Assembly (NCBI GenBank): GCA_041498975.1
Contig: JBGQJI010000045.1
Location: 1-16,853, forward strand
Direction: 5' to 3'
Source of the DNA: Candidatus Methylomirabilis sp.
Lineage (GTDB): Bacteria > Methylomirabilota > Methylomirabilia > Methylomirabilales > Methylomirabilaceae
DNA: 16,853 bases
The notes under the pieces were generated by a model. It saw only the letters and a list, made by a program, of their open reading frames with translations. It ran no database searches and was not told the DNA's origin. Shown here in pieces: positions 4,176 to 16,853 of the stretch. The stretch's first letter is position 1, and each line of letters starts with the position of its first letter. The translations under genes were made by a program, and so were the position numbers.

Positions 4176-4958
4176 ATGACAAGAGTGGAATCGTTCGAGC
4201 GGCGCCACTGGTCGAAGCAGAGCCGGATCGAAGCGGGCAAACGCCCCTCTGAGGAGCAGGTCCGTGACTTCCGCGAGATCTACCTGCAATACGCTGCGGA
4301 GGAGTCGGTCATGCTGGAGGCCCAGCGGTGCCTCGAGTGCAAAGAGCCCTCATGCGAGACCGCTTGCCCGCTCGGCAACCGGATCCGGGACTGGCTTCGG
4401 CTGGCATCGGAGGGGAAGTTCTTGGAGGCGGCGGCCGTCTCGCGCGAGACCAGCAACATGCCGGAGGTCTGCGGCCGCGTCTGCCCGCAGGACCGGCTCT
4501 GCGGGGAAGGAGTCGAGTTTCACTGGCTCACCGCTCCGGTAACGTTCATCGGGGATGAGGATGGAAAGGTCCGGGCGATCGAATGTGTGCAGATGGTGCT
4601 TGGCGAACCCGACAAGGACGGCCGGCGGAAGCCGGTTGAGGTCAAAGGCAGCAACTATCTGATCGAGGCCGACCTGGTCATCATGGCCTTCGGGTTCGAC
4701 GCTTCGCCGGTTGAAGGCGAGGATGCCTCGAAGCTGACAACTAACAAGTGGGGGAACTACGAGGTCGATCGGGTCAAGATGACCTCCTGGCCAGGGGTCT
4801 TTGCCGGCGGCGACATCGTCCGCGGCGCCGATTTGGTGGTGACGGCAATCAAGGACGGTCGTGAGGCGGCAAAGGGGATCGACGAATACCTCCGCCATCT
4901 GTCGAAGCAGGGGCACGCAGGTGCCGATGTCCTGGCCGCGGAGCGAGGGCAGATGTGA
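4176..4958 (+). pseudogene. gltD: GltD/SudA-like flavo-FeS oxidoreductase with a large in-frame internal deletion
   Basis: N-terminal EAQRCLECKEPSCETACP...CGRVCPQDRLC joins directly (~4503) to the C-terminal GVEFHWL...DLVIMAFG...GVFAGGDIVRGADLVVTAIKDGREAA; 260 aa versus the typical ~470; FAD and NAD(P)H GxGxxG/A motifs are absent. Confidence 0.75.
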
Positions 4959-7169: not shown

Positions 7170-7853
7170 ATGTTGTGCGAGAGATGCCCAGTTCGAGGGG
7201 ATTCGGTATTTGGGACGGTCTTGCCACCGGTAGATCGCCAGTCGAAACCATCCCATTCGGTCAGGCGATTTGCTAGGAGGCAGGTCGTGCTGCGAGAAGG
7301 GGAGATACCGGTGGGTCTCTACTGCATCCGGTCCGGCCTGTTGAAGCGTAGCCTCGGAGATCCGCAAGGCAATCGGAAGATCCTTGAGATCCTGGGGCCC
7401 GGCGACCTCCTCGGTATAGAGTCGATCAGTGGCAACGGGTGCCGAGCGGCAGAGATTGCTACCCTGGAGGCAAGTGAGCTCTGCTTCTTCCACCGGCGTG
7501 ATCTGTCGGAATTGATGAAGGGAACTCCGGCCTTCGCCATCGCCCTCGCGGCTTACACTGCTGAGCGTCTAGCTCACGCCGAGCGGGAACTAGCTGACCT
7601 TTCGCTGAAGACCGCGAGGCAACGGCTTGCCAATGTGCTCCTCACCCTCGGTCAGAGGTATGGGAAGCATACGCCACGCGGGCTGTTGCTGGACCTGCCG
7701 ATCAGCCGCGGCGAGCTGGCCAATTTGACCGGGATTGCGCTTGCCACTGCCAGCCGCCTCTGTAGGGAGCTGAAAGATGAGGGAGCAATTAGTACAAAGG
7801 GGCGGAGGATATTCATCTTGCGATGGGAGCAACTCAAAGAGGACACCGGGTGA
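7170..7853 (+). CDS. Crp/Fnr family transcriptional regulator with N-terminal CxxC
   Basis: cNMP-like beta-roll (LREGE..GLYCIRSGLLK...ILGPGDLLG), RQRLANVLL, HTH LPISRGELANLTGIALATASR; RBS GAGGTG. Confidence 0.9.
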   Translation: MLCERCPVRGDSVFGTVLPPVDRQSKPSHSVRRFARRQVVLREGEIPVGLYCIRSGLLKRSLGDPQGNRKILEILGPGDLLGIESISGNGCRAAEIATLEASELCFFHRRDLSELMKGTPAFAIALAAYTAERLAHAERELADLSLKTARQRLANVLLTLGQRYGKHTPRGLLLDLPISRGELANLTGIALATASRLCRELKDEGAISTKGRRIFILRWEQLKEDTG

Positions 7854-7866
7854 GATATTGGAGCTT

Positions 7867-8005
7867 GTGCCGTTCCAACTCTTTACGCCAAAATGGTGAG
7901 GCTAGTACCGTTCCAATTTTATCTCAGAAATAATGACGCTATGCAGAGGCCGATTGAGTTGCCCACATATCACGGTGTCCTGAGGCCAAAAAGTTGGAAC
8001 GGCAC
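7867..8005. mobile_element. Putative MITE with 14-bp perfect terminal inverted repeats and an internal extra left-end copy
   Basis: GTGCCGTTCCAACT (7867-7880) is the exact reverse complement of AGTTGGAACGGCAC (7992-8005); third copy GTACCGTTCCAATT at 7905-7918; AT-richer non-coding interior. Confidence 0.55.
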
Positions 8006-8140: not shown

Positions 8141-10129
8141 ATGGGTCTTCTGATGGACCGGCGAGAGGAGCGTGGGAAGGGTGAGGCCTTTCCGGCGAGG
8201 ATAGGTCGGAAGCTCGGCTTCGCCATGGGCCTGGCCTTGTTCTTGGTTCTCCTGGTCGGCGCTATCTCTATTTTCCTTTCGAGTTCTATCTCGCGCGGCA
8301 CCCAGGTGATCAAGGCTCAGAGCGAGGAGATTGAAGATGTGAACCGATTGCACACCATGACCCACCACCTCGTCGAGGTGGTTCAACATGCCCTGGTTTC
8401 GGGCAAAGCCCCTCTCGGTGAGAAGGTAGAAGTGATGCTCAGGAATCTGGACCGGGGGGTGGCGAAATATCTGGCGGCGGAGAAAGCGCGAGAGGACACC
8501 CCTGAAAAGGCCGCGGAGCTTGCAATCCTCAAGGAGATTGTCGGTGTGACATCCAACCTGGCCGATGTTTCAGGGGAGATCGTCGGGGCAGTGGCCCTCG
8601 GGCGCAAGGTCAATCTCAGGACAACCGACCACCTCAATAAGCTTGCCCGCTCAGGCCACGAGAAGTTCGAGAGGCTAAACCAGATCCATCACGCGAAGAT
8701 GAAAGGGTCGATAGGGGCGAGCGAGGCGAAACTGAAGCGTATCATGGGGATCTACGTCGCCTTCGCCTTCCTGGGGGTTTTATCCCTCATCCTGGGGTGC
8801 GTCGTCTTTTCCAAAACTATCGTGGTGCCGGTCCAGAAGTTGGCCTCTGCCACCCTCGATATCGCAGCAGGCGACTTCGGGAAGAGGGTGGCCGTGGCAT
8901 CGAAGGACGAGATCGGACAGCTCTCCCACTCCTTCAATGTTATGGCGGAGAGGCTGGAGCAGCATGAAGGTGAGCTGAGGGTCGTCCAGGAGGACCTGGC
9001 AAGGAAGGTGCGGGAGACCGAAGCCCTCTACCGGGTCGGGATGGAGATCTCGGCCCTGCTGGAGTTGGACACGATCTTGACCTCGGTGATCGAGAAGGCA
9101 CGGGAACTGTTGGGGGGCGAGGCGGCATGTCTTTGTCTTCTGGATGCGGAGGGCCACCTTGTCCCTAGAGCAACGTCCGGGCCTTTCGGTTTGGCTGCGC
9201 CAGATGAGGCAACGGCTGGCCCACTGGCCGGAATCGCTCCATCCCTCGGGAACCCGCCGGGCTGTGGCCATGTGGCGTGCGAACAACATTGCCCTCCGAT
9301 CTGCGGGGAACTTCAGCTAACTCGCATCGTTGCCCCGCTGAAAAGGGGCGAGAGATCGATTGGAACCCTCTGCGTAATCGCTCGCTCGCCGAAGGGCTTT
9401 TCTTCAAGGGAAATGGATCTCCTACAGGGGCTCGCCAGCCAGGCTGCCATCGCGATGGAGAACGCCCGACTGCACGAGCAGGTGCGGAGCCTGACGCTGT
9501 TGGAGGAGCGGGAACGGATCGCAATGGACCTCCACGATGGCATTATTCAGTCGATCTACGCCGTCGGCCTCAACCTTGAGAGGTGCGCGGAACTGGTGAA
9601 GGATGACTCGCGCGAGGTGGGGGCACCACTGGAGAGGGCGGTGGACGATCTGAACGACGTGATCAGGGGGATCCGCATCTATATCTCTGACCTGCGGCCC
9701 AGCTCCTGCAATGGGAGGGGGTTAAGAGAGACCATCGCAGACGCCGTGAAGGTGTTGAAGATCGATTCCTCGATGGAGGTGGAGGTCATCGAAGAGGGGA
9801 TCTGTGGGAAGCTGTCGCAACAACAGGTTGCCCAGCTTTCGCACATTGCTCAGGAGGCGCTTGCCAACGTCCTGAAGCACGCTGGGGCCAGTTCTGTCAC
9901 TGTCCGCCTGCTTTCAGAGGATCATCGCCTTATCCTCTCCATTCAAGACAACGGGGTGGGGTTCGACCCCCAGATGGTGGAACCCGCAGCCGGGCAGGGA
10001 CTGAAAAACATGGCGGAGCGGGGTAGGGCCCTTGGGGGCACCTTCTCAGTGAAGAGCATACAGGGTTCGGGGACCGAAATCGCCGTTCAGATCCCTCTAG
10101 CGAAAGCCAACGCAGGGAGCAGGGCATGA
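8141..10129 (+). CDS. Membrane sensor histidine kinase: TM-periplasmic helical domain-TM-HAMP-GAF-HisKA_3-HATPase (NarX/DosS class)
   Basis: Two TM helices, HAMP (PVQKL...DEIGQLSHSFNVM), GAF ending LASQAAIAMENARLH, H-box ERERIAMDLHDGIIQ, QEALANVLKHA, DNGVGF, GQGLKNMAER. Start at ATG 8141 or 8153; the ORF-track start lies inside the MITE end. Confidence 0.92.
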   Translation: MGLLMDRREERGKGEAFPARIGRKLGFAMGLALFLVLLVGAISIFLSSSISRGTQVIKAQSEEIEDVNRLHTMTHHLVEVVQHALVSGKAPLGEKVEVMLRNLDRGVAKYLAAEKAREDTPEKAAELAILKEIVGVTSNLADVSGEIVGAVALGRKVNLRTTDHLNKLARSGHEKFERLNQIHHAKMKGSIGASEAKLKRIMGIYVAFAFLGVLSLILGCVVFSKTIVVPVQKLASATLDIAAGDFGKRVAVASKDEIGQLSHSFNVMAERLEQHEGELRVVQEDLARKVRETEALYRVGMEISALLELDTILTSVIEKARELLGGEAACLCLLDAEGHLVPRATSGPFGLAAPDEATAGPLAGIAPSLGNPPGCGHVACEQHCPPICGELQLTRIVAPLKRGERSIGTLCVIARSPKGFSSREMDLLQGLASQAAIAMENARLHEQVRSLTLLEERERIAMDLHDGIIQSIYAVGLNLERCAELVKDDSREVGAPLERAVDDLNDVIRGIRIYISDLRPSSCNGRGLRETIADAVKVLKIDSSMEVEVIEEGICGKLSQQQVAQLSHIAQEALANVLKHAGASSVTVRLLSEDHRLILSIQDNGVGFDPQMVEPAAGQGLKNMAERGRALGGTFSVKSIQGSGTEIAVQIPLAKANAGSRA

Positions 10130-10797
10130 GTGACAACCCAACACGGCTCCTCATCGTTGACGACCATGAGGTGGTGCGTGTGGGGCTGCGGCTTCTCTTG
10201 GAGCGGAGGGCCGGCCTCGAGGTCGTGGGAGAGGCCGCCTCGATGGCCAGCGCCGTTGAGGAAGCCTCACAATGCTCGCCAGACGTGGTCATCATGGACA
10301 TCCGGCTGCCCGATGGAAGTGGTGTAGAGGCCTGTCGGGAGATTCGGGCCAGACGACCGGAAACGAAGGTCATCATGCTCACGTCGTATGCCGATGAGGA
10401 CGCGGTGTTTGCCTCCATTCTTGCGGGGGCCTCGGGATATCTGCTGAAACAGATCGGATCGCATGCGTTGGTTGACGCGATCCAAACTGTAGCGCGGGGA
10501 CGGTCATTGTTGGACCCGTCCGTCACCGAAAAGGTCCTTGAGCGGGTGAGAAGGATGGGCACCAGCGCGGCGGATGAACAGCTCTCGAAGCTCTCGGCGC
10601 AGGAACAGAGGATTCTTGCCCTGATCGCCGAAGGCAAGACCAACAAGGAAATCGCCGGGGAGGTCTGCCTGAGCGACAAGACCGTCAAGAATTACGTCAG
10701 TAGCATCCTGGCCAAGCTGAACTTAAGCCGCCGGTCAGCGGCGGCCGCCTTCGTCGCCGGGCAGGGCAGGAGGAGTGGGCCGAGCGGCAATTCGTAA
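10126..10797 (+). CDS. NarL/LuxR response regulator, DevR/DosR-like
   Basis: IVDDHEVVR, MDIRLPDGSG, LTSY, AGASGYLLK, GRSLLD, and HTH EGKTNKEIA...SDKTVKNYVSSILAKL closely follow mycobacterial DosR; ATGA overlap with the kinase. Confidence 0.93.
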   Translation: MSDNPTRLLIVDDHEVVRVGLRLLLERRAGLEVVGEAASMASAVEEASQCSPDVVIMDIRLPDGSGVEACREIRARRPETKVIMLTSYADEDAVFASILAGASGYLLKQIGSHALVDAIQTVARGRSLLDPSVTEKVLERVRRMGTSAADEQLSKLSAQEQRILALIAEGKTNKEIAGEVCLSDKTVKNYVSSILAKLNLSRRSAAAAFVAGQGRRSGPSGNS

Positions 10798-10830: not shown

Positions 10831-10880
10831 AAGGGGGCCAGATGGCCTGATCGTAATGGGCCATCTGGCCCCCCTTTTTT
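10831..10880 (+). terminator. Intrinsic terminator-like hairpin overlapping operator boxes
   Basis: 15-bp perfect stem GGGGGCCAGATGGCC / GGCCATCTGGCCCCC, 11-nt loop, followed by T7. Confidence 0.6.
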
Positions 10881-10996: not shown

Positions 10997-11410
10997 ATGA
11001 CGCGGGTTCGGGTGCTGATCGTCGAGGAACATGACAAGGTCCGGCGGGAAATGGCGGCCCGGTTGCGAAGCGAAGCGCATCTTGAGCTGGTTGGTGCAGC
11101 CGCTTCCGGCGAGGAAGCTGTCTCAATGCTTCAACGCGCTCGGCCGGACGTGATCCTCCTGGGTCTCGGGATGAGGGCCGAGAGGGGGTTGGAGACGTGC
11201 CGCAAGGTCGCCACTATCGCCCCCGAGGCCAGGATCCTGGTGCTGACCTCCTGCGAAGATGAGGCCGAAAAGCGGGAGGCGTATCGGGCCGGGGCCTGCC
11301 GGTATCTGCTGAAGGACCTTCACTCGAGGGAACTGATCCGGGCGATCGAGGGCCTCCGGATAGCACATCCTCGGAAAGGAGGGAGGAACGACGGAATACT
11401 CAATCGATGA
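10997..11410 (+). CDS. Aspartate-less (pseudo-)receiver domain protein, NarL-type, without HTH
   Basis: VLIVEEHDKVR...PDVILLGLGM (Gly at the phospho-Asp position)...LVLTS...AGACRYLLKD; GGGAG before ATG 10997. Confidence 0.8.
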   Translation: MTRVRVLIVEEHDKVRREMAARLRSEAHLELVGAAASGEEAVSMLQRARPDVILLGLGMRAERGLETCRKVATIAPEARILVLTSCEDEAEKREAYRAGACRYLLKDLHSRELIRAIEGLRIAHPRKGGRNDGILNR

Positions 11411-11481: not shown

Positions 11482-12984
11482 ATGAAGCGCACAAGAGTCT
11501 TCGGCCTCGTGGGAATTATGGCAATGGCGCTGGGGCTCATCGTCCCAATGGAGGTCGAAGCTATCCCCGCGTTCGCACGACTCTACGGGCATAAGTGCAG
11601 CGCTTGCCACAGCGCCTTTCCGGCGCTGAACGCCAGCGGGGAGGAGTTTCGCCTATCGGGATACCGGCGCTTCGAAGGTGGGGACGTGGTCCCAAAGGTC
11701 CCGCCCGTGAAAATTGGGGACCGCCTGGAGCTCCCCGGGATCGTCCCCCTCTCCTTTAGCCTGACGGCCGGGTATAACTTCACGGAGATCGACAACACCC
11801 TCGGGGACGGGAGCAAGAATGTCAACACGGAAAGCGACTTCAAGAGGAATCAGAGCAGCTTCAATTTGAACGAGTTTGAGTTTCTCGCCGGGGCCTCGCT
11901 GGGGAGCCACCTCTCCTTTTTCCTCGAAGCTCCACTGGGCGAGACTGAGATCCGCCAGTTCTTCGACCCCGAGGTGAGAAATCACGGAGCCAAATTTAAG
12001 TTGGAGGGGCCGGAGGTCCCGGAGTTGGCGTTCATGGGCTTCCACGACATCCTGCTCCCGGACCTCCTGAACCTGAAGGCCGGCATCATCGAGCTGCCGA
12101 CCGCCTTCTCCCCTAATGCTCGACGCCTGTCGTTTTTCCCCTACTTGGTCTACGAGGCGACCGCCCTGGATGTCGTCTCTCGGAGGGGGCTTGATAATTT
12201 CGCCGCCGTCCCGGGGGTCGATGAGGAGGGGCTGGAACACAATCAGTTCCGTCTCAGCAAGTCCCAGGTCGGCGTCCAGCTCTTCGGGCGGATCACGCGA
12301 TCGCTCCATCAGATCCCCGAACTCTTTGTGGATTACGTCGTCGGGGTGGTGAACGGGAATAATGTCAACGCCGACAACAACAAGACAAAAGACATCTTTG
12401 GTCGCCTGGCGTTCACCTACACGATCCCAAGCATGACCATGACGGTCGGGGGGTTCGGCTACTACAGCGGCAACACCGTGGATAACCTGACCACCAATCC
12501 AGAGAATGAGGCCAAGTACAAAGACCGGCTGTGGCGGGCAGGGCCTGACATCACCTTCACGCTGAATACGCCGCTCTACGTCAACCTCTCCTCGCAGATT
12601 CTCTTCGGCGAGGACAGCAACGCCACCGGCTTCGGCAAGAAGGCGACCTGGTGGGGAGGCTTCGTGCAGGCGGAGGTCAAGCCGATCACCGAGCTCATCC
12701 TCTACGGCCGCTACGACTGGATCGAGGGTGAGCGGTTCAATGACACCGACGTAACAATCAACGGGGCCAGCGGGACGATCGGGCCGGTCGAGCCCAGCCT
12801 GTGGGATGTGGTGATCGGGGCGCAGTACTTCCTCTACGAGAACTTCAAGCTGATCGCGGAATACCGCCATGGCGAAAAAGATCTGAGGCCAGGTACCAGC
12901 GCCAACCCGGACGTACAGCCGATCGATCAACTCAAGAAGACGGAGGAGGACGCGGTCTTTGCCGGGTTCCGTCTGGCCTTCTAA
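11482..12984 (+). CDS. cyc2: Cyc2-like fused monoheme cytochrome c-outer-membrane beta-barrel porin
   Basis: RBS AGGAGG; Sec signal peptide ending VEA; mature N-terminus IPAFARLYGHKCSACHSAFPALNASGEEFRLSGY (PxFAR, CxxCH, PxL, GxxF..GY); amphipathic beta strands; C-terminal Phe (AGFRLAF); 500 aa. Confidence 0.82.
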   Translation: MKRTRVFGLVGIMAMALGLIVPMEVEAIPAFARLYGHKCSACHSAFPALNASGEEFRLSGYRRFEGGDVVPKVPPVKIGDRLELPGIVPLSFSLTAGYNFTEIDNTLGDGSKNVNTESDFKRNQSSFNLNEFEFLAGASLGSHLSFFLEAPLGETEIRQFFDPEVRNHGAKFKLEGPEVPELAFMGFHDILLPDLLNLKAGIIELPTAFSPNARRLSFFPYLVYEATALDVVSRRGLDNFAAVPGVDEEGLEHNQFRLSKSQVGVQLFGRITRSLHQIPELFVDYVVGVVNGNNVNADNNKTKDIFGRLAFTYTIPSMTMTVGGFGYYSGNTVDNLTTNPENEAKYKDRLWRAGPDITFTLNTPLYVNLSSQILFGEDSNATGFGKKATWWGGFVQAEVKPITELILYGRYDWIEGERFNDTDVTINGASGTIGPVEPSLWDVVIGAQYFLYENFKLIAEYRHGEKDLRPGTSANPDVQPIDQLKKTEEDAVFAGFRLAF

Positions 12985-13012
12985 GGGCTTGAGGCTCAGA
13001 GGGCTGAGGCGC

Positions 13013-13588
13013 ATGGGGACTAGAAGAGGCGGTACAAACGGCTCATGGAAGGTTGTTCTCCGGGCCCCCATTCTTGGGGTCATCGCGGCGGGTCTGGTGA
13101 GCTGTACAGCCCTCCCCGGTGGGTCACTGGATCCTCTGGTCCCCGCCCTTGGCATCCCTCGGGGGGAGGGTACTTCAGCTCAGGCGCGGAGTGAGCCTCC
13201 GGCGCCGCAGGCCAGAGCCTCGACGCGCGGTTCGTCTGCGCCAAGCCACGAGGTTCAGCCGCGCGGCGAGGCGCCCACACCCAGTGAATGGATCGGCCGA
13301 TATCGGGATAGCCGTGGAGAGGGGGAGATCACTCTCACCCTCACGCAGGATGGGACCGCACATGGCGGCACATGGCGGCTCCGGACTGGTGGCTCTGGCA
13401 CCTTTAGCGGGATCGTCGCTCCGGACGGCCGCACGCTCTCCTTCTCGATGCGGGGCGGCGATCAGGAGTGCCTCGCCACGCTTGAGGGGATCGCCGAGTA
13501 CGCGGGCGACCGGATCATCAGCAGCTATCGGGGGACCGATTGCCATGGAGCGGTGGCGGACGGCCATCTGGATCTCCAGAAACGGTGA
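13013..13588 (+). CDS. Putative lipoprotein with a Pro/Ala/Ser linker and small beta-rich C-terminal domain
   Basis: Basic N-terminus, hydrophobic stretch and lipobox GLVS-C; low-complexity linker; Gly-rich beta strands with two Cys. Confidence 0.65.
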   Translation: MGTRRGGTNGSWKVVLRAPILGVIAAGLVSCTALPGGSLDPLVPALGIPRGEGTSAQARSEPPAPQARASTRGSSAPSHEVQPRGEAPTPSEWIGRYRDSRGEGEITLTLTQDGTAHGGTWRLRTGGSGTFSGIVAPDGRTLSFSMRGGDQECLATLEGIAEYAGDRIISSYRGTDCHGAVADGHLDLQKR

Positions 13589-13908
13589 GAAGGCGAGCTC
13601 AGTAGGCCCAGACGAGGGGCACCCTACCTGATCGCGATCGGCCCAAATCTCATCATCCCCTGTCTCTAGGGCTATATGGGACCACCCGGTCACCATTCGC
13701 TCGCCAGGAATCCACTGCCACGATCTCAATGGGGCCCGAAACCATCAGGGGCTGTCCTCCTCTGGCCAGCCTTCTTCTCCTTATCGTCATCGCCGCCCTC
13801 TATGCTTCGAGGCTCGGAGCGGCACGACACCCATCGTCGGAACAGGCGTCAGAGAATAGCTGCGTTCCCCTGGGATGAATGATGTGAGTGTGGTTAGGAC
13901 AGGCAACC

Positions 13909-13923
13909 TTGATTGAAAATCAA
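13909..13923. promoter_or_regulatory. Palindrome TTGAT-N5-ATCAA just upstream of the cytochrome c RBS
   Basis: TTGATTG-A-AAATCAA in GC-rich DNA, ending 3 bp before AAGGAGG. Confidence 0.4.
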
Positions 13924-13941
13924 AATAAGGAGGTCGTGACT

Positions 13942-14307
13942 GTGAGACAACCGAATCGGCATTTCTCAATATCGCTGGGTCTTCTGGTGTTGCTGGTCGG
14001 CACAATTGGCCCGGGAGTCCTTCGAGCCTCCGGTGCCGATTTGGCAAAAGGGGAAAAGATCTACAAGTTGATGTGTGTTAAGTGCCATGGGCCGACTGGA
14101 CGGGGGGATGGTCCCAAGGCACCGGACTTGGACCCTAAGCCGATGGACTACACAGACAAGGCCAGGATGGCGCAATTTACAGATGACGAGTTGCGGGAGA
14201 CGATCATCGACGGGAAAGCACCTATGCCGAGCTTCAAAAAGCAGTTGAAGCCTAGCGATGTGGAGGACGTCCTCGCCTACATTTTGAAGAAGCTCGCCGG
14301 AAGATAG
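13942..14307 (+). CDS. Periplasmic class I monoheme cytochrome c
   Basis: RBS AAGGAGG 8 nt before GTG 13942; signal peptide; GEKIY..MCVKCHG..GRGDGP; distal Met in PMPSF. Confidence 0.92.
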   Translation: MRQPNRHFSISLGLLVLLVGTIGPGVLRASGADLAKGEKIYKLMCVKCHGPTGRGDGPKAPDLDPKPMDYTDKARMAQFTDDELRETIIDGKAPMPSFKKQLKPSDVEDVLAYILKKLAGR

Positions 14308-14424
14308 CGGGCCGTCCCACAATTGTTGAGGTCGGTTTGGTCGAGCGGGACGCCCAGTCGATAAACGAGCCTAGCGCTGAGCGCCCGTAGGTAGCATGAG
14401 AAGCCACAAGACGGAGGAGCTCGA

Positions 14425-14925
14425 GTGACCAGGGTTGGTGCCGTTGCTGCGTCCCTTGTCGCAACCCTGACGGTCGTTACCCTCATCGCCGCCCGACCGT
14501 GGGAGACCGTCCCGACTCAACCTCTCGCCTTCAGTCACAAGGTCCATGCGGGCGAGTACGAGATCCCGTGTCTCTACTGCCATGTCAACACGCGGCGCTC
14601 TGCGATCGCAGGGATCCCCTCGGTAGAACGATGCATGGGGTGCCATGCCATCATGAAGGCGGACAAAGCGGCAGAGGTCAAAAAGATTCAAGAGTACTGG
14701 GACCGACAGGAACCAATCCCCTGGATTAGAATCTATGACCAACCGGACTTCGTCTACTTCTCCCACAAACGCCAGGTCCTCAAGGGTATTGCCTGCAAGA
14801 CCTGCCACGGCGCCGTGGAGACAATGGACCGCGTGCAAAAAGTGGTGGTTCTGGACATGGATCGGTGCGTTGCCTGCCACATGGAGAAAAAGGCGAACAT
14901 TGATTGCTTGACCTGTCATCAGTGA
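14425..14925 (+). CDS. actA: Membrane-anchored pentaheme cytochrome c, alternative complex III subunit ActA (QrcA-like)
   Basis: N-terminal TM, QPLAFSHKVHAG, five CxxCH (CLYCH, CMGCH, CKTCH, CVACH, CLTCH), PIPWIRIY..PDFVYFSH; RBS GGAGG. Confidence 0.88.
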   Translation: MTRVGAVAASLVATLTVVTLIAARPWETVPTQPLAFSHKVHAGEYEIPCLYCHVNTRRSAIAGIPSVERCMGCHAIMKADKAAEVKKIQEYWDRQEPIPWIRIYDQPDFVYFSHKRQVLKGIACKTCHGAVETMDRVQKVVVLDMDRCVACHMEKKANIDCLTCHQ

Positions 14926-14940
14926 CACCACAGGTTACTC

Positions 14941-16853
14941 ATGACCCAACAGATCAATCGCAGGAATTTCTTGAAGATCCTCGGAGTCGGCGGGGCTGCC
15001 ACAGCCCTTGTGAGCTGCTCAGTCGAGCCTCCAGAGAAACTGATCCCCTACTTGATCCCGCCAGAGGAGATCATCCCCGGCGTTGCCACCTGGTACGCCA
15101 CCGTCTGCCGGGAGTGCCCGGCAGGATGCGGGATGCTCGTCCGGACTCGGGAAGGGCGGGCCGTCAAGGTTGAGGGGAACCCGTCGCACCCCGTCAATCA
15201 AGGCCGGCTCTGCGCCCGCGGCCAGGCCTCCCTTCAGGGGCTCTACAATCCCGATCGGATTCGGCAGCCGCTGCTCCGAGGCGACTCCGGCCAATTCCAA
15301 TCCATATCCTGGGAAGAGGCCGAAAGGCTCCTGGTGGAACGGCTCGCTGATCTCCGCAGGCAGGGAAAGGCCAAAGGGATCGCCTGTGTGACCCCCCTCC
15401 TGAGTGGCAGCCTCGACCACCTGATCAGCACTTGGCTGGCCGCCCTGGGGTCAAAACGCCGACTTACCTACGAGGCTTTCGCCTACGAGCCTTTGAAGGC
15501 GGCCAACCGAATCGCCTTCGGCCTCGATGTCATCCCTAGCTACGATATCGGGGCGGCCGAGCTGCTCCTCTCCTTCGGGGCCGACTTCCTCGAGACCTGG
15601 ATTTCCACGGTGGCGTATACCAGCGCGTTCGCCACTATGCGCGCCTATCGGGACGGGAGGGTAGGAACGGCTATCTATGTCGGGCCCCGCCTGTCTTTGA
15701 CGGCCGCGAACACCGATCAGTGGGTTCGTATCAAGCCGGGGACCGAACTCTATCTCGTGATGGGGATGATCCACGTGATCCTGAAAGAGCAGCTCGCCCC
15801 GTCTATTCCCCAAAAGGAGGTAAAGCAGCTCAAGGCGTTGGTGAAGGCGTACGACCCGAAGGTGGTGGCTGCCGTGACCGAGGTCCCGGCGGGGAAAGTC
15901 TTTCGGCTGGCCCGGATGTTCGCCAGGGCGAGGCCGGGTCTCGCCATCGGAGGAGGTGTCGCCGCGGCTTCCCGCAACGCCACAGCCACCCTCGTCGCCA
16001 TCAACCTCTTAAATTATGTGACCGGTAACGTGGGAAGGACCGTCCGCTTCGGCCCCAACGCCAACCCGGCTAAGCTCGCCACATACCGCGACATGCTCAG
16101 CCTCGTCAAGGCCATGGACAAAGGCGAGGTGCAGGCGCTCCTCCTATACGGTGTCAATCCCCTCTTCACCCTCCCTGAGGCGGCGGGATTTCGTGCGGCA
16201 CTAAAGAAGACCCCCTTCGTGGTGAGCTTCGCACCCTTCATGGACGAGACGACGGCCGAAGCCAATCTGATCTTGCCGGACCATACGCCTCTGGAGAGTT
16301 GGGGGGACTACTCCCCCTGGGAAGGCGTCCATGGCCTCATGCAGCCGGTGATGCGGCCTGTGTTCAAAACCAAGGCGGTCGGCGATCTCCTCCTCTCCGT
16401 GGCCAAACGAGTGGACGACCGGATGGCCAAGGAGTTCCCGTGGCCGACGTTTTACGAGTATGCGCGGGATCGGTGGGGCGAACTGCACCGCCGGTTAGCC
16501 CCAATGAAAGAGTTCGAGGCCTTCTGGGAAGAGGCGCTCCGATCTGGAGGCATCTGGAAGGAAGCCCGCGCCACACCTGTGCGTCTCTCTCCAGAGGCAT
16601 TTAAGATGGCATTTGACCCCTCGGAGCTAGACGGTGGAGCGGCCGAGGCCTTCCATCTCCTCCCATTCCCCTCCCTGGTCCATTACGACGGACGGGGGGC
16701 GAATCGACCGTGGCTTCAGGAACTACCTGACCCCGTCACAGAGATCGTCTGGGACTCCTGGTTGGAGATCCATCCCGAGGCGGCCAAGCGGATGGGGATC
16801 GATGAGGGCGAAGTCATCGCGGTGACATCGCCTCACGGGGCCCTTGAGCTGCC
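14941..16853 (+). CDS. actB: Alternative complex III subunit ActB (molybdopterin-oxidoreductase-like fold), Tat-exported; 3' truncated by window end
   Basis: Absent from the ORF track, consistent with no stop before the window end. Reads MTQQINRRNFLK (Tat)...ALVSC...EKLIPY..PEEIIPGVATWYATVCRECPAGC...EGRAVKVEGNPSHP...LCARGQASLQGLYNPDR...YDGRGANRPWLQELPDPVTEIVWD, typical of ActB; follows actA. Confidence 0.88.
   Translation, partial: MTQQINRRNFLKILGVGGAATALVSCSVEPPEKLIPYLIPPEEIIPGVATWYATVCRECPAGCGMLVRTREGRAVKVEGNPSHPVNQGRLCARGQASLQGLYNPDRIRQPLLRGDSGQFQSISWEEAERLLVERLADLRRQGKAKGIACVTPLLSGSLDHLISTWLAALGSKRRLTYEAFAYEPLKAANRIAFGLDVIPSYDIGAAELLLSFGADFLETWISTVAYTSAFATMRAYRDGRVGTAIYVGPRLSLTAANTDQWVRIKPGTELYLVMGMIHVILKEQLAPSIPQKEVKQLKALVKAYDPKVVAAVTEVPAGKVFRLARMFARARPGLAIGGGVAAASRNATATLVAINLLNYVTGNVGRTVRFGPNANPAKLATYRDMLSLVKAMDKGEVQALLLYGVNPLFTLPEAAGFRAALKKTPFVVSFAPFMDETTAEANLILPDHTPLESWGDYSPWEGVHGLMQPVMRPVFKTKAVGDLLLSVAKRVDDRMAKEFPWPTFYEYARDRWGELHRRLAPMKEFEAFWEEALRSGGIWKEARATPVRLSPEAFKMAFDPSELDGGAAEAFHLLPFPSLVHYDGRGANRPWLQELPDPVTEIVWDSWLEIHPEAAKRMGIDEGEVIAVTSPHGALEL

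What the first reader, a model, noticed from the sequence alone, without database searches (positions are those of the whole stretch)
11482..16853. Cyc2-like cytochrome-porin clustered with a periplasmic cytochrome c and alternative complex III: candidate outer-membrane-to-quinone electron conduit
Seen: co-oriented porin with N-terminal PAFARLY-x3-CSACH-x3-PAL and C-terminal Phe, lipoprotein, monoheme cytochrome c, pentaheme ActA and ActB. Known: the PxFAR/CxxCH/PxL signature defines Cyc2, the Fe(II) oxidase of Acidithiobacillus, Zetaproteobacteria and Gallionellaceae; the neutrophile models route Cyc2 to periplasmic cytochrome c and then to ACIII or an oxidase. Inference: the chain is encoded in one locus under a DosR-like system, in a host whose gene set (class V FBPase, fused ACD) does not look like a classic proteobacterial iron oxidizer. 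It may be an undescribed extracellular electron uptake module. Many Cyc2 homologs have no proven function.
Basis: partly seen in the sequence, partly recalled or inferred. Interest (0 to 1): 0.88.

Follow-up and report, generated by a model that had tools for sequence, protein, structure and literature searches.

The report
Cyc2-like porin slot beside complex III
An uncultured relative of the methane-eating Methylomirabilis bacteria carries in one gene row a predicted outer-membrane heme porin like that of iron-oxidising bacteria, an unnamed partner lipoprotein, a small cytochrome and alternative complex III, which together likely bring electrons from dissolved iron outside the cell into its respiratory chain.

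Summary
Observation confirmed. 11482-12984 encodes a 500-aa Cyc2-like protein: PAFARLY-CSACH-PAL motif (one residue off the published consensus) and a predicted 16-strand porin. A lipoprotein, a monoheme cytochrome c, pentaheme ActA and ActB follow. ActB continues into ActC on contig C238; two close relatives hold the full actABCDEF. ActB keeps the CX2CX3CX27C motif reported for iron-oxidiser ActB1. The host lies in a Methylomirabilota clade where pmoA was not found, sister to the methanotrophs.

The gene slot, not the gene, is conserved: a relative with 97% identical ActB carries a different Cyc2 type in the same place. ActA lies within 8 kb of only 7 of 57 Cyc2-motif genes read, so the ACIII link recurs but is not obligatory. 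The unnamed partner gene is tighter: 16 of its 18 strong hits lie beside a cyc2-like gene. 'DosR-like control' is not supported.

Best reading (0.5): Fe(II) to Cyc2 to cytochrome c, then aa3 oxidase downhill and ACIII uphill to menaquinone. Direction, substrate, co-transcription and Cyc2 cluster are untested. This is a new variant of a known, still unproven pathway model.

The parts
11482..12984 (+). Cyc2-like fused monoheme cytochrome-porin, 500 aa, signal peptide predicted by inspection (cleavage after VEA, residue 27)
   Evidence: Motif; Pfam BBP2 only, E 6.7e-6; AF2 pLDDT 88.9, 16 barrel strands; porin fold Z 24.9, rmsd 3.2, 301 aligned to PorB 3A2S; profile hits OprO/OprP
13013..13588 (+). 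Unnamed lipoprotein (start uncertain): lipobox, conserved C-x-x-L-P-x-G-S-L-D-P segment, low-complexity linker, 8-strand avidin-like barrel with two conserved Cys
   Evidence: No Pfam or NCBIfam hit; alignment; model and fold search; linkage to cyc2-like genes
13942..14307 (+). Monoheme class I cytochrome c with signal peptide (periplasmic carrier, predicted)
   Evidence: Pfam Cytochrom_C E 3e-13; start from comparison with G005 and G016; PDB cytochrome c552 hits
14425..14925 (+). ActA, pentaheme subunit of alternative complex III
   Evidence: 5 CxxCH; best PDB hits are ACIII ActA chains, E 2e-31 to 7e-26
14941..16853 (+). ActB 5' part (TAT signal, CX2CX3CX27C motif); continues on contig C238 into the Fe-S domain and ActC
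   Evidence: the full-length G005 ortholog hits ACIII ActB 6F0K_B at E 1e-144
10997..11410 (+). Receiver-only response regulator, probable first gene of the cyc2 unit
   Evidence: Pfam Response_reg; the upstream DNA is shared by G002, G005 and G016, each followed by a cyc2-like gene
10833..10880 (+). Intrinsic terminator-like hairpin (17 pairs plus T run) between the two-component genes and the cyc2 unit
8141..10129 (+). Membrane histidine kinase (periplasmic helical domain with three conserved His, HAMP, GAF, HisKA_3); often near cyc2-like genes; role untested
10126..10797 (+). NarL/LuxR-family response regulator
   Evidence: all named NCBIfam models below cut-off

Best explanation
The row likely encodes an electron-uptake route: a predicted outer-membrane Cyc2-like heme porin would oxidise dissolved Fe(II), the small cytochrome c would carry the electron across the periplasm, and ACIII would drive part of the flow uphill into menaquinone while the rest goes to the aa3 oxidase encoded elsewhere. 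Shown here: the genes, motifs, predicted folds, gene order, the swap of Cyc2 type in the same slot, and the host's oxidase, menaquinone-pathway, complex I and cytochrome c maturation genes. Inferred: localisation, heme loading, the substrate, the direction of ACIII, co-transcription, and any role of the lipoprotein (probably an accessory for assembly or anchoring, since it has no heme motif). In this host it would be a supplement to C1 metabolism rather than the main lifestyle.
For: (1) The protein meets the published Cyc2 criteria except one consensus residue: single CxxCH, upstream AxPxFAR, PxL four residues downstream, more than 365 aa, 16-strand barrel, OprO/OprP as nearest solved homologs.
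(2) The Cyc2 family members tested so far oxidise Fe(II): cluster 1 PV-1, cluster 2, cluster 3 Cyt572, and a further cluster 3 protein from Nitrospirota (passages).
(3) G016 is 97% identical in ActB and 92% in DNA from 13762 onward. It keeps the upstream receiver region and the cytochrome-act genes but holds an unrelated-barrel Cyc2-like gene between them, matching only over 62 N-terminal residues at 37%. This argues that the slot is kept for a Cyc2-type function.
(4) Linkage to ACIII or a relative recurs with different Cyc2 lineages and both fused and split ActB (G000, G005, G016, G025:C56, G036:C17, L137).
(5) ActB carries CX2CX3CX27C, as reported for iron-oxidiser ActB1; the aligned Roseiflexus/Chloroflexus-type, Rhodothermus and Flavobacterium ActB chains lack these cysteines (organism names recalled). 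In Sideroxydans, ACIII is strongly induced by Fe(II).
(6) G000 already has a Rieske/cytochrome b complex beside an aa3 oxidase, so ACIII is a second complex III. Mqn-family, complex I and Ccm genes are present. RuBisCO is in G005 and G016.
Against: ActA is within 8 kb for only 7 of 57 Cyc2-motif genes, although many loci end at contig edges. Of 18 fused-ActB loci, 4 have cyc2 within 8 kb, 5 have none in 10 kb or more upstream, and 9 are cut within 3 kb. The Fe-S motif is in all 13 fused-type ActB sequences printed, with or without cyc2, so it is no mark of iron oxidation. The residue after FAR is Leu, which Keffer's tree filter would have excluded. By motif the protein resembles cluster 3, whose function is called most uncertain and which occurs in iron reducers; a member of a 64%-identical cluster is labelled Geobacteraceae. 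RuBisCO and phosphoribulokinase were not found in G000 (84.9% complete). A 353-bp gap, where G016's similarity resumes, may hold a separate promoter for cytochrome-act.
Confidence: 0.5

Rival explanations
1. Neighbours without a dedicated uphill link: ACIII is the lineage's ordinary quinol:cytochrome c oxidoreductase, and a mobile cyc2 cassette landed upstream and feeds only the common cytochrome c pool and oxidase.
For: ActB orthologs occur in 21 of 41 genomes searched, mostly without cyc2 nearby. In family f4 the same cytochrome-act unit follows a heme-copper oxidase-like gene and an NXR-like operon. G002 has the cyc2 unit, but no ActB was found with this query (81% complete). Solved ACIIIs oxidise quinol.
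Against: In-place replacement by another Cyc2 type in G016, repeated independent pairings, and a separate bc-aa3 cluster already covering the forward route.
Confidence: 0.2
2. The same wiring runs outward: quinol to ACIII to cytochrome c to the Cyc2-like porin, which reduces a soluble extracellular acceptor such as chelated Fe(III), Mn(III) or humic quinones.
For: This is ACIII's demonstrated direction. [quoted passage not shown] A close cluster has a Geobacteraceae-labelled member. In relatives the upstream slot holds terminal-acceptor modules (oxidase, NXR/Nar).
Against: No Cyc2-family protein with shown reductase function appeared in the passages read; Cyc2PV-1 has +208 mV; cluster assignment here is by motif only.
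Confidence: 0.15
3. Uptake as in the best explanation, but from another soluble donor (Mn(II), reduced humics or redox shuttles), or a redox-sensing or detoxifying role rather than energy gain.
For: Cyc2 homologs occur in Mn(II) oxidisers and nitrifiers and in many bacteria not known to oxidise iron. The Atlas's nearest clusters are unnamed, commonest Nitrospirota among the few with a record. Overall sequence distance to tested proteins could not be measured.
Against: All functionally tested members in the passages read use Fe(II). The subfamily conserves many acidic residues, compatible with a cation pore, though not specific.
Confidence: 0.15

Closest known systems
Cyc2 fused cytochrome-porins (Mariprofundus Cyc2PV-1, Acidithiobacillus Cyc2, Leptospirillum Cyt572; Keffer et al., bioRxiv 10.1101/228056; McAllister et al., PMC7029218)
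   Same: Signal peptide, single N-terminal CxxCH with AxPxFAR and PxL, 16-strand OprO/OprP-like barrel, about 500 aa.
   Different: Leu instead of Gln/Lys after FAR, as in most of its subfamily (K or Q in 0 of 30 motif-bearing rows of A3). FAR-x-Y type like Cyt572 (FARKY), hence probably cluster 3, but not tested. A near-invariant His276 in a predicted periplasmic turn. A linked lipoprotein gene.
Cyc2-Cyc1-ACIII model of neutrophilic iron oxidisers (He et al., PMC5566968; Kato et al., PMC4643136; Zhou et al., PMC8788666)
   Same: Same three functional parts; ActB with CX2CX3CX27C.
   Different: Genes lie in one row here, whereas in Ferriphaselus cyc2 (OYT1_00168) and act (OYT1_00079-85) are far apart. 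ActB is fused, not split. The carrier is monoheme, not diheme Cyc1. Host is Methylomirabilota with an aa3 oxidase.
Alternative complex III of PDB 6F0K, 6BTM, 6LOD, 8K9E; Qrc complex
   Same: Pentaheme ActA, fused ActB, NrfD-type ActC; ActD, monoheme ActE and ActF in G005 and G016.
   Different: Extra N-terminal four-cysteine motif in ActB; NCBIfam QrcA/B/C are best hits but below cut-off; ActD-F not assembled in G000.
Non-methanotrophic clade of Ca. Methylomirabilis (Rasmussen et al., PMC11264602)
   Same: No pmoA, nirS or Nod/qNor found; NAR/NXR and a PQQ alcohol dehydrogenase present; sister to the methanotrophs.
   Different: That paper's main text has no occurrence of cyc2; its supplements were not searched.

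Membership tests
Cyc2 | N-terminal signal peptide | tested here: met
   By inspection only (basic start, hydrophobic helix, VEA before the mature IPAF; Ala27 nearly invariant); SignalP not run
Cyc2 | Single CxxCH near the mature N-terminus | tested here: met
   C39, C42, H43 invariant in 31 of 31 and 108 of 108 rows
Cyc2 | AxPxFAR core and T/Y, five residues upstream of CxxCH | tested here: met
   AIPAFAR-x-Y-GHK-C
Cyc2 | Gln or Lys directly after FAR (strict consensus and tree filter of Keffer et al.) | tested here: not met
   Leu here; profile-linked relatives carry KY in 53 of 100 motif-bearing rows of A2. Filed therefore as Cyc2-like, not as a strict member
Cyc2 | PxL four residues after CxxCH | tested here: met
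   CSACH-SAF-PAL
Cyc2 | At least 365 aa with a 16-strand porin related to OprO/OprP | tested here: met
   500 aa; 16 strands in the model; OprO E 1.4e-7 by profile; OprP Z 22.4, rmsd 3.3, 319 aligned
Cyc2 | FeGenie HMM hit and cluster 1/2/3 placement | not testable with these tools
Cyc2 | Heme loading and Fe(II) oxidase activity | not testable with these tools
   Needs expression and assay
Alternative complex III | Pentaheme ActA | tested here: met
Alternative complex III | ActB: molybdopterin-enzyme-like domain plus Fe-S domain | tested here: met
   Window plus C238; G005 ortholog 990 aa, best hits the four ACIII ActB chains
Alternative complex III | NrfD-type ActC following actB | tested here: met
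   C238, 388 aa to the contig end, Pfam NrfD E 5e-28
Alternative complex III | ActD, ActE, ActF | tested here: inconclusive
   Not found in the G000 assembly, where C238 ends inside actC; present in order in G005 (Pfam ActD, monoheme, NrfD-like) and G016
Alternative complex III | No molybdopterin cofactor in ActB | not tested
   Ligand positions not examined
DosS/DosR system | Kinase with tandem GAF domains (heme gas sensor; definition recalled) | tested here: not met
   One GAF behind two membrane helices, a periplasmic domain and HAMP; best NCBIfam hits MctS/NarQ/NarX and MadR/NarL, all below cut-off

The most novel reading that the evidence does not exclude
The Methylomirabilis lineage includes iron-oxidising mixotrophs. 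A swappable Cyc2 slot and an undescribed lipoprotein subunit form an outer-membrane module wired either to an Fe-S-extended ACIII (methane-independent clade) or to a periplasmic nitrate/nitrite oxidoreductase (two pmoA-bearing genomes, G004 and G007), allowing Fe(II) oxidation with O2 or nitrate and reverse electron flow for CO2 fixation.
Probability: 0.25. Interest if true: 0.8.

Novelty: new variant of a known kind. Interest (0 to 1): 0.5.

Why it matters
The Cyc2-to-ACIII route is a long-standing model resting on co-occurrence and expression; in the genomes described in the passages read, the genes are not adjacent. A compact locus names the exact carrier and complex to reconstitute, and the natural swap of Cyc2 types offers a built-in comparison. 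It would give the methane-independent Methylomirabilis clade an energy source beyond methanol, and hints at metal-linked electron transfer in some nitrite-dependent methanotrophs. The linked lipoprotein is a candidate accessory that could matter for expressing Cyc2 proteins. Interest is tempered because unchecked notes from this scan report Cyc2-ACIII linkage in at least six other genomes, and function is untested.

Tried and rejected
- Complex prediction of the Cyc2-like protein (with heme) and the lipoprotein: no answer, score 0.00 in two runs; neither for nor against binding.
- No Cyc2 relative among solved structures by sequence; thermolysin hits are chance. Fold searches list only porins.
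- FNR box search: 6 two-mismatch sites against 3.67 expected, none upstream of the unit. Sigma-70 scan: 1 site against 2.6 expected.
- Rfam: 0 matches. Plasmid tblastn: no match.
- RNA runs: 4 runs with shares 0.05-0.11, contigs only, mostly 90-95% alike, so they come from relatives and show neither level nor co-transcription.
- The search for related loci in genome contigs gave 2 relevant loci of 9; the other 7 were weak Bacteroidota hits and were dropped.
- The second homolog search reached no named Cyc2. Cluster look-up gave one organism label.
- Cluster assignment against reference Cyc2 sequences was left out because none was held.
- Rejected: 'DosR-like'; ActB as a true molybdoenzyme (best hits are ACIII); Qrc (below cut-offs, and ActD-F present in relatives); assembly chimera (same order in G005 at 86% DNA identity over 6,092 aligned bases).
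- NiFe hydrogenase not found over cut-off in 5 of 5 genomes.
- Literature: searches and the passages read showed no description of a cyc2-act operon, of Cyc2 in Ca. Methylomirabilis, or of this lipoprotein. Only some listed papers were opened. FeGenie does note cyc2 or sulfocyanin homologs in Rokubacteria. The figshare trees of McAllister and Keffer, and bioRxiv supplements, could not be seen and may contain these sequences.
Full report
Observation. The window is the whole contig C45 of an 84.9%-complete, 2.68-Mb genome. From 10997 to the end six genes run on the + strand: a receiver-only regulator, the 500-aa protein at 11482-12984, a lipoprotein, a monoheme cytochrome c, pentaheme ActA and the first 637 codons of ActB. 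Gaps are 71, 28, 353, 117 and 15 bases. The Cyc2-type motif is unique in the genome and absent from 5 shuffles. Contig C238 overlaps the end of C45 by 79 identical bases and encodes the rest of ActB and 388 residues of an NrfD-family ActC. ActD-F were not found in this assembly, but follow in order in G005 and G016.

The porin. AlphaFold2 on a 55-row alignment gives pLDDT 88.9, a small helical N-terminal heme region and, by my count of the strand list, 16 barrel strands. Fold searches return general porins (PorB Z 24.9, rmsd 3.2, 301 aligned). A 108-row profile finds OprO and OprP as the best solved homologs, the same templates Keffer et al. report for Cyc2 (10.1101/228056, passages). All their criteria are met except the residue after FAR, which is Leu, so I file it as Cyc2-like. 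The FAR-x-Y form matches Cyt572 (FARKY; PMC13741234, passages) and suggests cluster 3; this is inference, as no reference sequences or FeGenie models were available. The subfamily is small: 68 proteins by word search, and 45 representatives at E below 1e-30 of 3,980 at 0.001. His276 is kept in 29 of 31 rows, in a turn predicted to face the periplasm, and is a candidate sixth heme ligand (speculation).

Host. An 86%-identical ortholog locus is titled Ca. Methylomirabilota and another hit is named NC10. pmoA was found in 10 of 41 relatives, all in the host's genus, and not in G000. An RpoB tree of 28 genomes puts G000 in a 7-genome group (support 90/84, not starred) in which pmoA was not found, sister to a 12-genome group (100/100) holding the 9 pmoA carriers on the tree. 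This fits the non-methanotrophic clade of Ca. Methylomirabilis (PMC11264602, abstract and passages). G000 encodes a PQQ alcohol dehydrogenase, an NXR-like enzyme, two formate dehydrogenases, a Rieske/cytochrome b cluster beside an aa3 oxidase, Mqn-family, complex I and Ccm genes. nirS, Nod/qNor, hydrogenase, RuBisCO and phosphoribulokinase were not found in it. RuBisCO is present in 16 of 19 congeners, including G005 and G016.

Conservation of the arrangement. G005 has the same row (86% DNA over 6,092 aligned bases). The region upstream of cyc2 is shared by G002, G005 and G016, 4 of the 7 group members counting G000, and each is followed by a Cyc2-motif gene. G002's copy is frameshifted and is not followed by act. 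In G016, similarity to the window stops inside the receiver gene and resumes at 13762; between lies a FARQT-type Cyc2-like gene from a distant branch that matches only 62 residues at 37%, with no lipoprotein. RNA-library contigs of relatives in 3 of 4 runs leave the window at 11574 and continue in frame with another Cyc2-type heme motif, a weak hint of a third allele type. The slot persists while its occupant is exchanged.

Across the phylum, 42 of 251 genomes match the profile, 35 of them with the heme motif. I read 57 motif-bearing genes (44 from genomes, 13 from metagenome contigs). A CxxCH-bearing ORF lies within 1.5 kb for 40, the lipoprotein family within 4 kb for 20, and ActA within 8 kb for 7 (6 loci); many loci end at contig edges. 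Close homologs in two pmoA-bearing genomes (G004 61%, G007 56%) lie with diheme cytochromes 4.6 and about 5.4 kb from a TAT-exported NXR-like operon. Another (L132) follows a Rieske and multiheme cluster, and others have no respiratory neighbours. Seen from ACIII, 4 of 18 fused-ActB loci have cyc2 within 8 kb, 5 have none in 10 kb or more upstream, and 9 are cut short. In family f4 the upstream position holds an oxidase-like gene and NXR instead. The ACIII link is therefore recurrent but optional.

The lipoprotein. It has no Pfam or NCBIfam match. The model shows an 8-strand barrel at residues 90-190 resembling avidins and designed barrels (Z 10-14, no functional meaning). Of 18 strong hits in 251 genomes, 16 lie within 4 kb of a cyc2-like gene; the other 2 are at contig edges and are followed by actA-actB. 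Kin are not independent. It comes in three forms: full lipoprotein (11 of the 20), a short lipopeptide of about 70 aa holding only the conserved C-x-x-L-P-x-G-S-L/V-D-P segment (4, plus L136), and a non-lipidated two-domain form beside FARQT-type Cyc2 (5). Nine weaker hits lie in larger proteins; the 5 I read are C-terminal domains of PQQ-type propellers. It has no heme motif, so an accessory role is more likely than electron transfer.

ACIII type. ActB is fused, TAT-exported and keeps CX2CX3CX27C, the motif Kato et al. report for iron-oxidiser ActB1 (PMC4643136, passages). The three solved ActB chains whose alignments were printed lack it. All 13 fused-type sequences printed share it, so it is a lineage trait.

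Regulation. The upstream kinase has two membrane helices, a periplasmic helical domain with three His conserved in 7 of 7 aligned homologs, HAMP and one GAF. It is not DosS-like, and a strong terminator-like hairpin separates the pair from the cyc2 unit. Kinases of this class lie within 6 kb of 10 of the 57 genes, so control of cyc2 is plausible but untested. No FNR box was found.

Mechanism. Cyc2PV-1 has +208 mV and Fe(II)/Fe(III) lies near 0 mV at neutral pH; menaquinone is near -75 mV (recalled). Electrons entering at the porin can run downhill to the aa3 oxidase or the NXR-like enzyme, but reach quinone only uphill. The model of He et al. (PMC5566968, passages) and the Fe(II) induction of ACIII in Sideroxydans (PMC8788666, abstract and passages) assign that step to ACIII. 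I give this 0.5. Rivals: unlinked forward ACIII (0.2), outward flow to an extracellular acceptor (0.15; PMC7005843, passages), and another donor (0.15; 10.1101/2021.11.15.468770, passages). PMC11412304 (passages) argues that mixotrophs may not need reverse flow, which favours the first rival.

Other papers seen as passages only: 10.64898/2026.03.26.714105, PMC7029218 (10 supplement files searched without hits), 10.1101/2020.07.02.185041, PMC10732223, PMC10654088, PMC8076601. None was read whole.

Novelty. The parts and the pathway model are known. Not found in the searches made: the single-row arrangement, its occurrence in Ca. Methylomirabilis, the exchangeable slot and the partner family. 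Unchecked notes of this scan describe Cyc2-ACIII linkage in at least six other genomes, one with a cyc2-linked lipoprotein. I did not test them, and sequence look-ups found no look-alike of either protein. Verdict: new variant of a known kind, interest 0.5.

Noticed in passing
window 7867-8005: A 139-bp element bounded by 13-bp inverted repeats lies between fnr and the kinase; the 13-mer occurs 70 times in the genome, often as inverted pairs, like a MITE/REP family. No Rfam hit.
   Followed up: partly
window 4176-4958: GltD-like gene of only 260 aa: the N-terminal Fe-S part is joined to the C-terminal part, with about 220 central residues missing; no paralog found in the assembly. Deletion or assembly fault not resolved.
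   Followed up: partly
window 8141-10129: The kinase periplasmic domain has three His conserved in 7 of 7 homologs (possible metal or heme site), and its GAF carries a four-Cys cluster that is only partly conserved.
   Followed up: partly
window 7170-7853: Crp/Fnr regulator with two N-terminal Cys and further internal Cys; no FNR box found in the window.
   Followed up: partly
L047 (G000:C134) 3-130: The NxrA-like frame begins with about 45 residues matching VgrG, probably a misassembly at the contig end; the true NxrA N-terminus is on C211.
   Followed up: partly
L023 (G004:C127) and L024/L025 (G007:C44): Two pmoA-bearing genomes carry the Cyc2-like gene and lipoprotein among diheme cytochromes next to a TAT-exported NXR-like operon.
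   Followed up: partly
L066, L070, L071 (G022, G026, G033): NXR-like operon, heme-copper oxidase-like gene, small cytochrome c and actABCDEF form one cluster in family f4.
   Followed up: no
L067 (G023:C150) 12363-19998: Multiheme cytochromes with 10, 8, 8 and 13 CxxCH motifs lie upstream of the cytochrome-act unit, perhaps another extracellular route in the same position.
   Followed up: no
L187 (G000:C24): Two NuoD-family genes about 10 kb apart on one strand, in G000 and four relatives, suggesting a duplicated or rearranged complex I cluster.
   Followed up: partly
L111, L112, L114-L117, L120 and others: A second widespread pairing in family f9: a FARQY-type Cyc2-like gene directly followed by a triheme cytochrome c.
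   Followed up: partly
L050 (G000:C34) 9592-19999: Rieske, split cytochrome b and a 918-aa octaheme protein directly upstream of aa3 oxidase genes.
   Followed up: no
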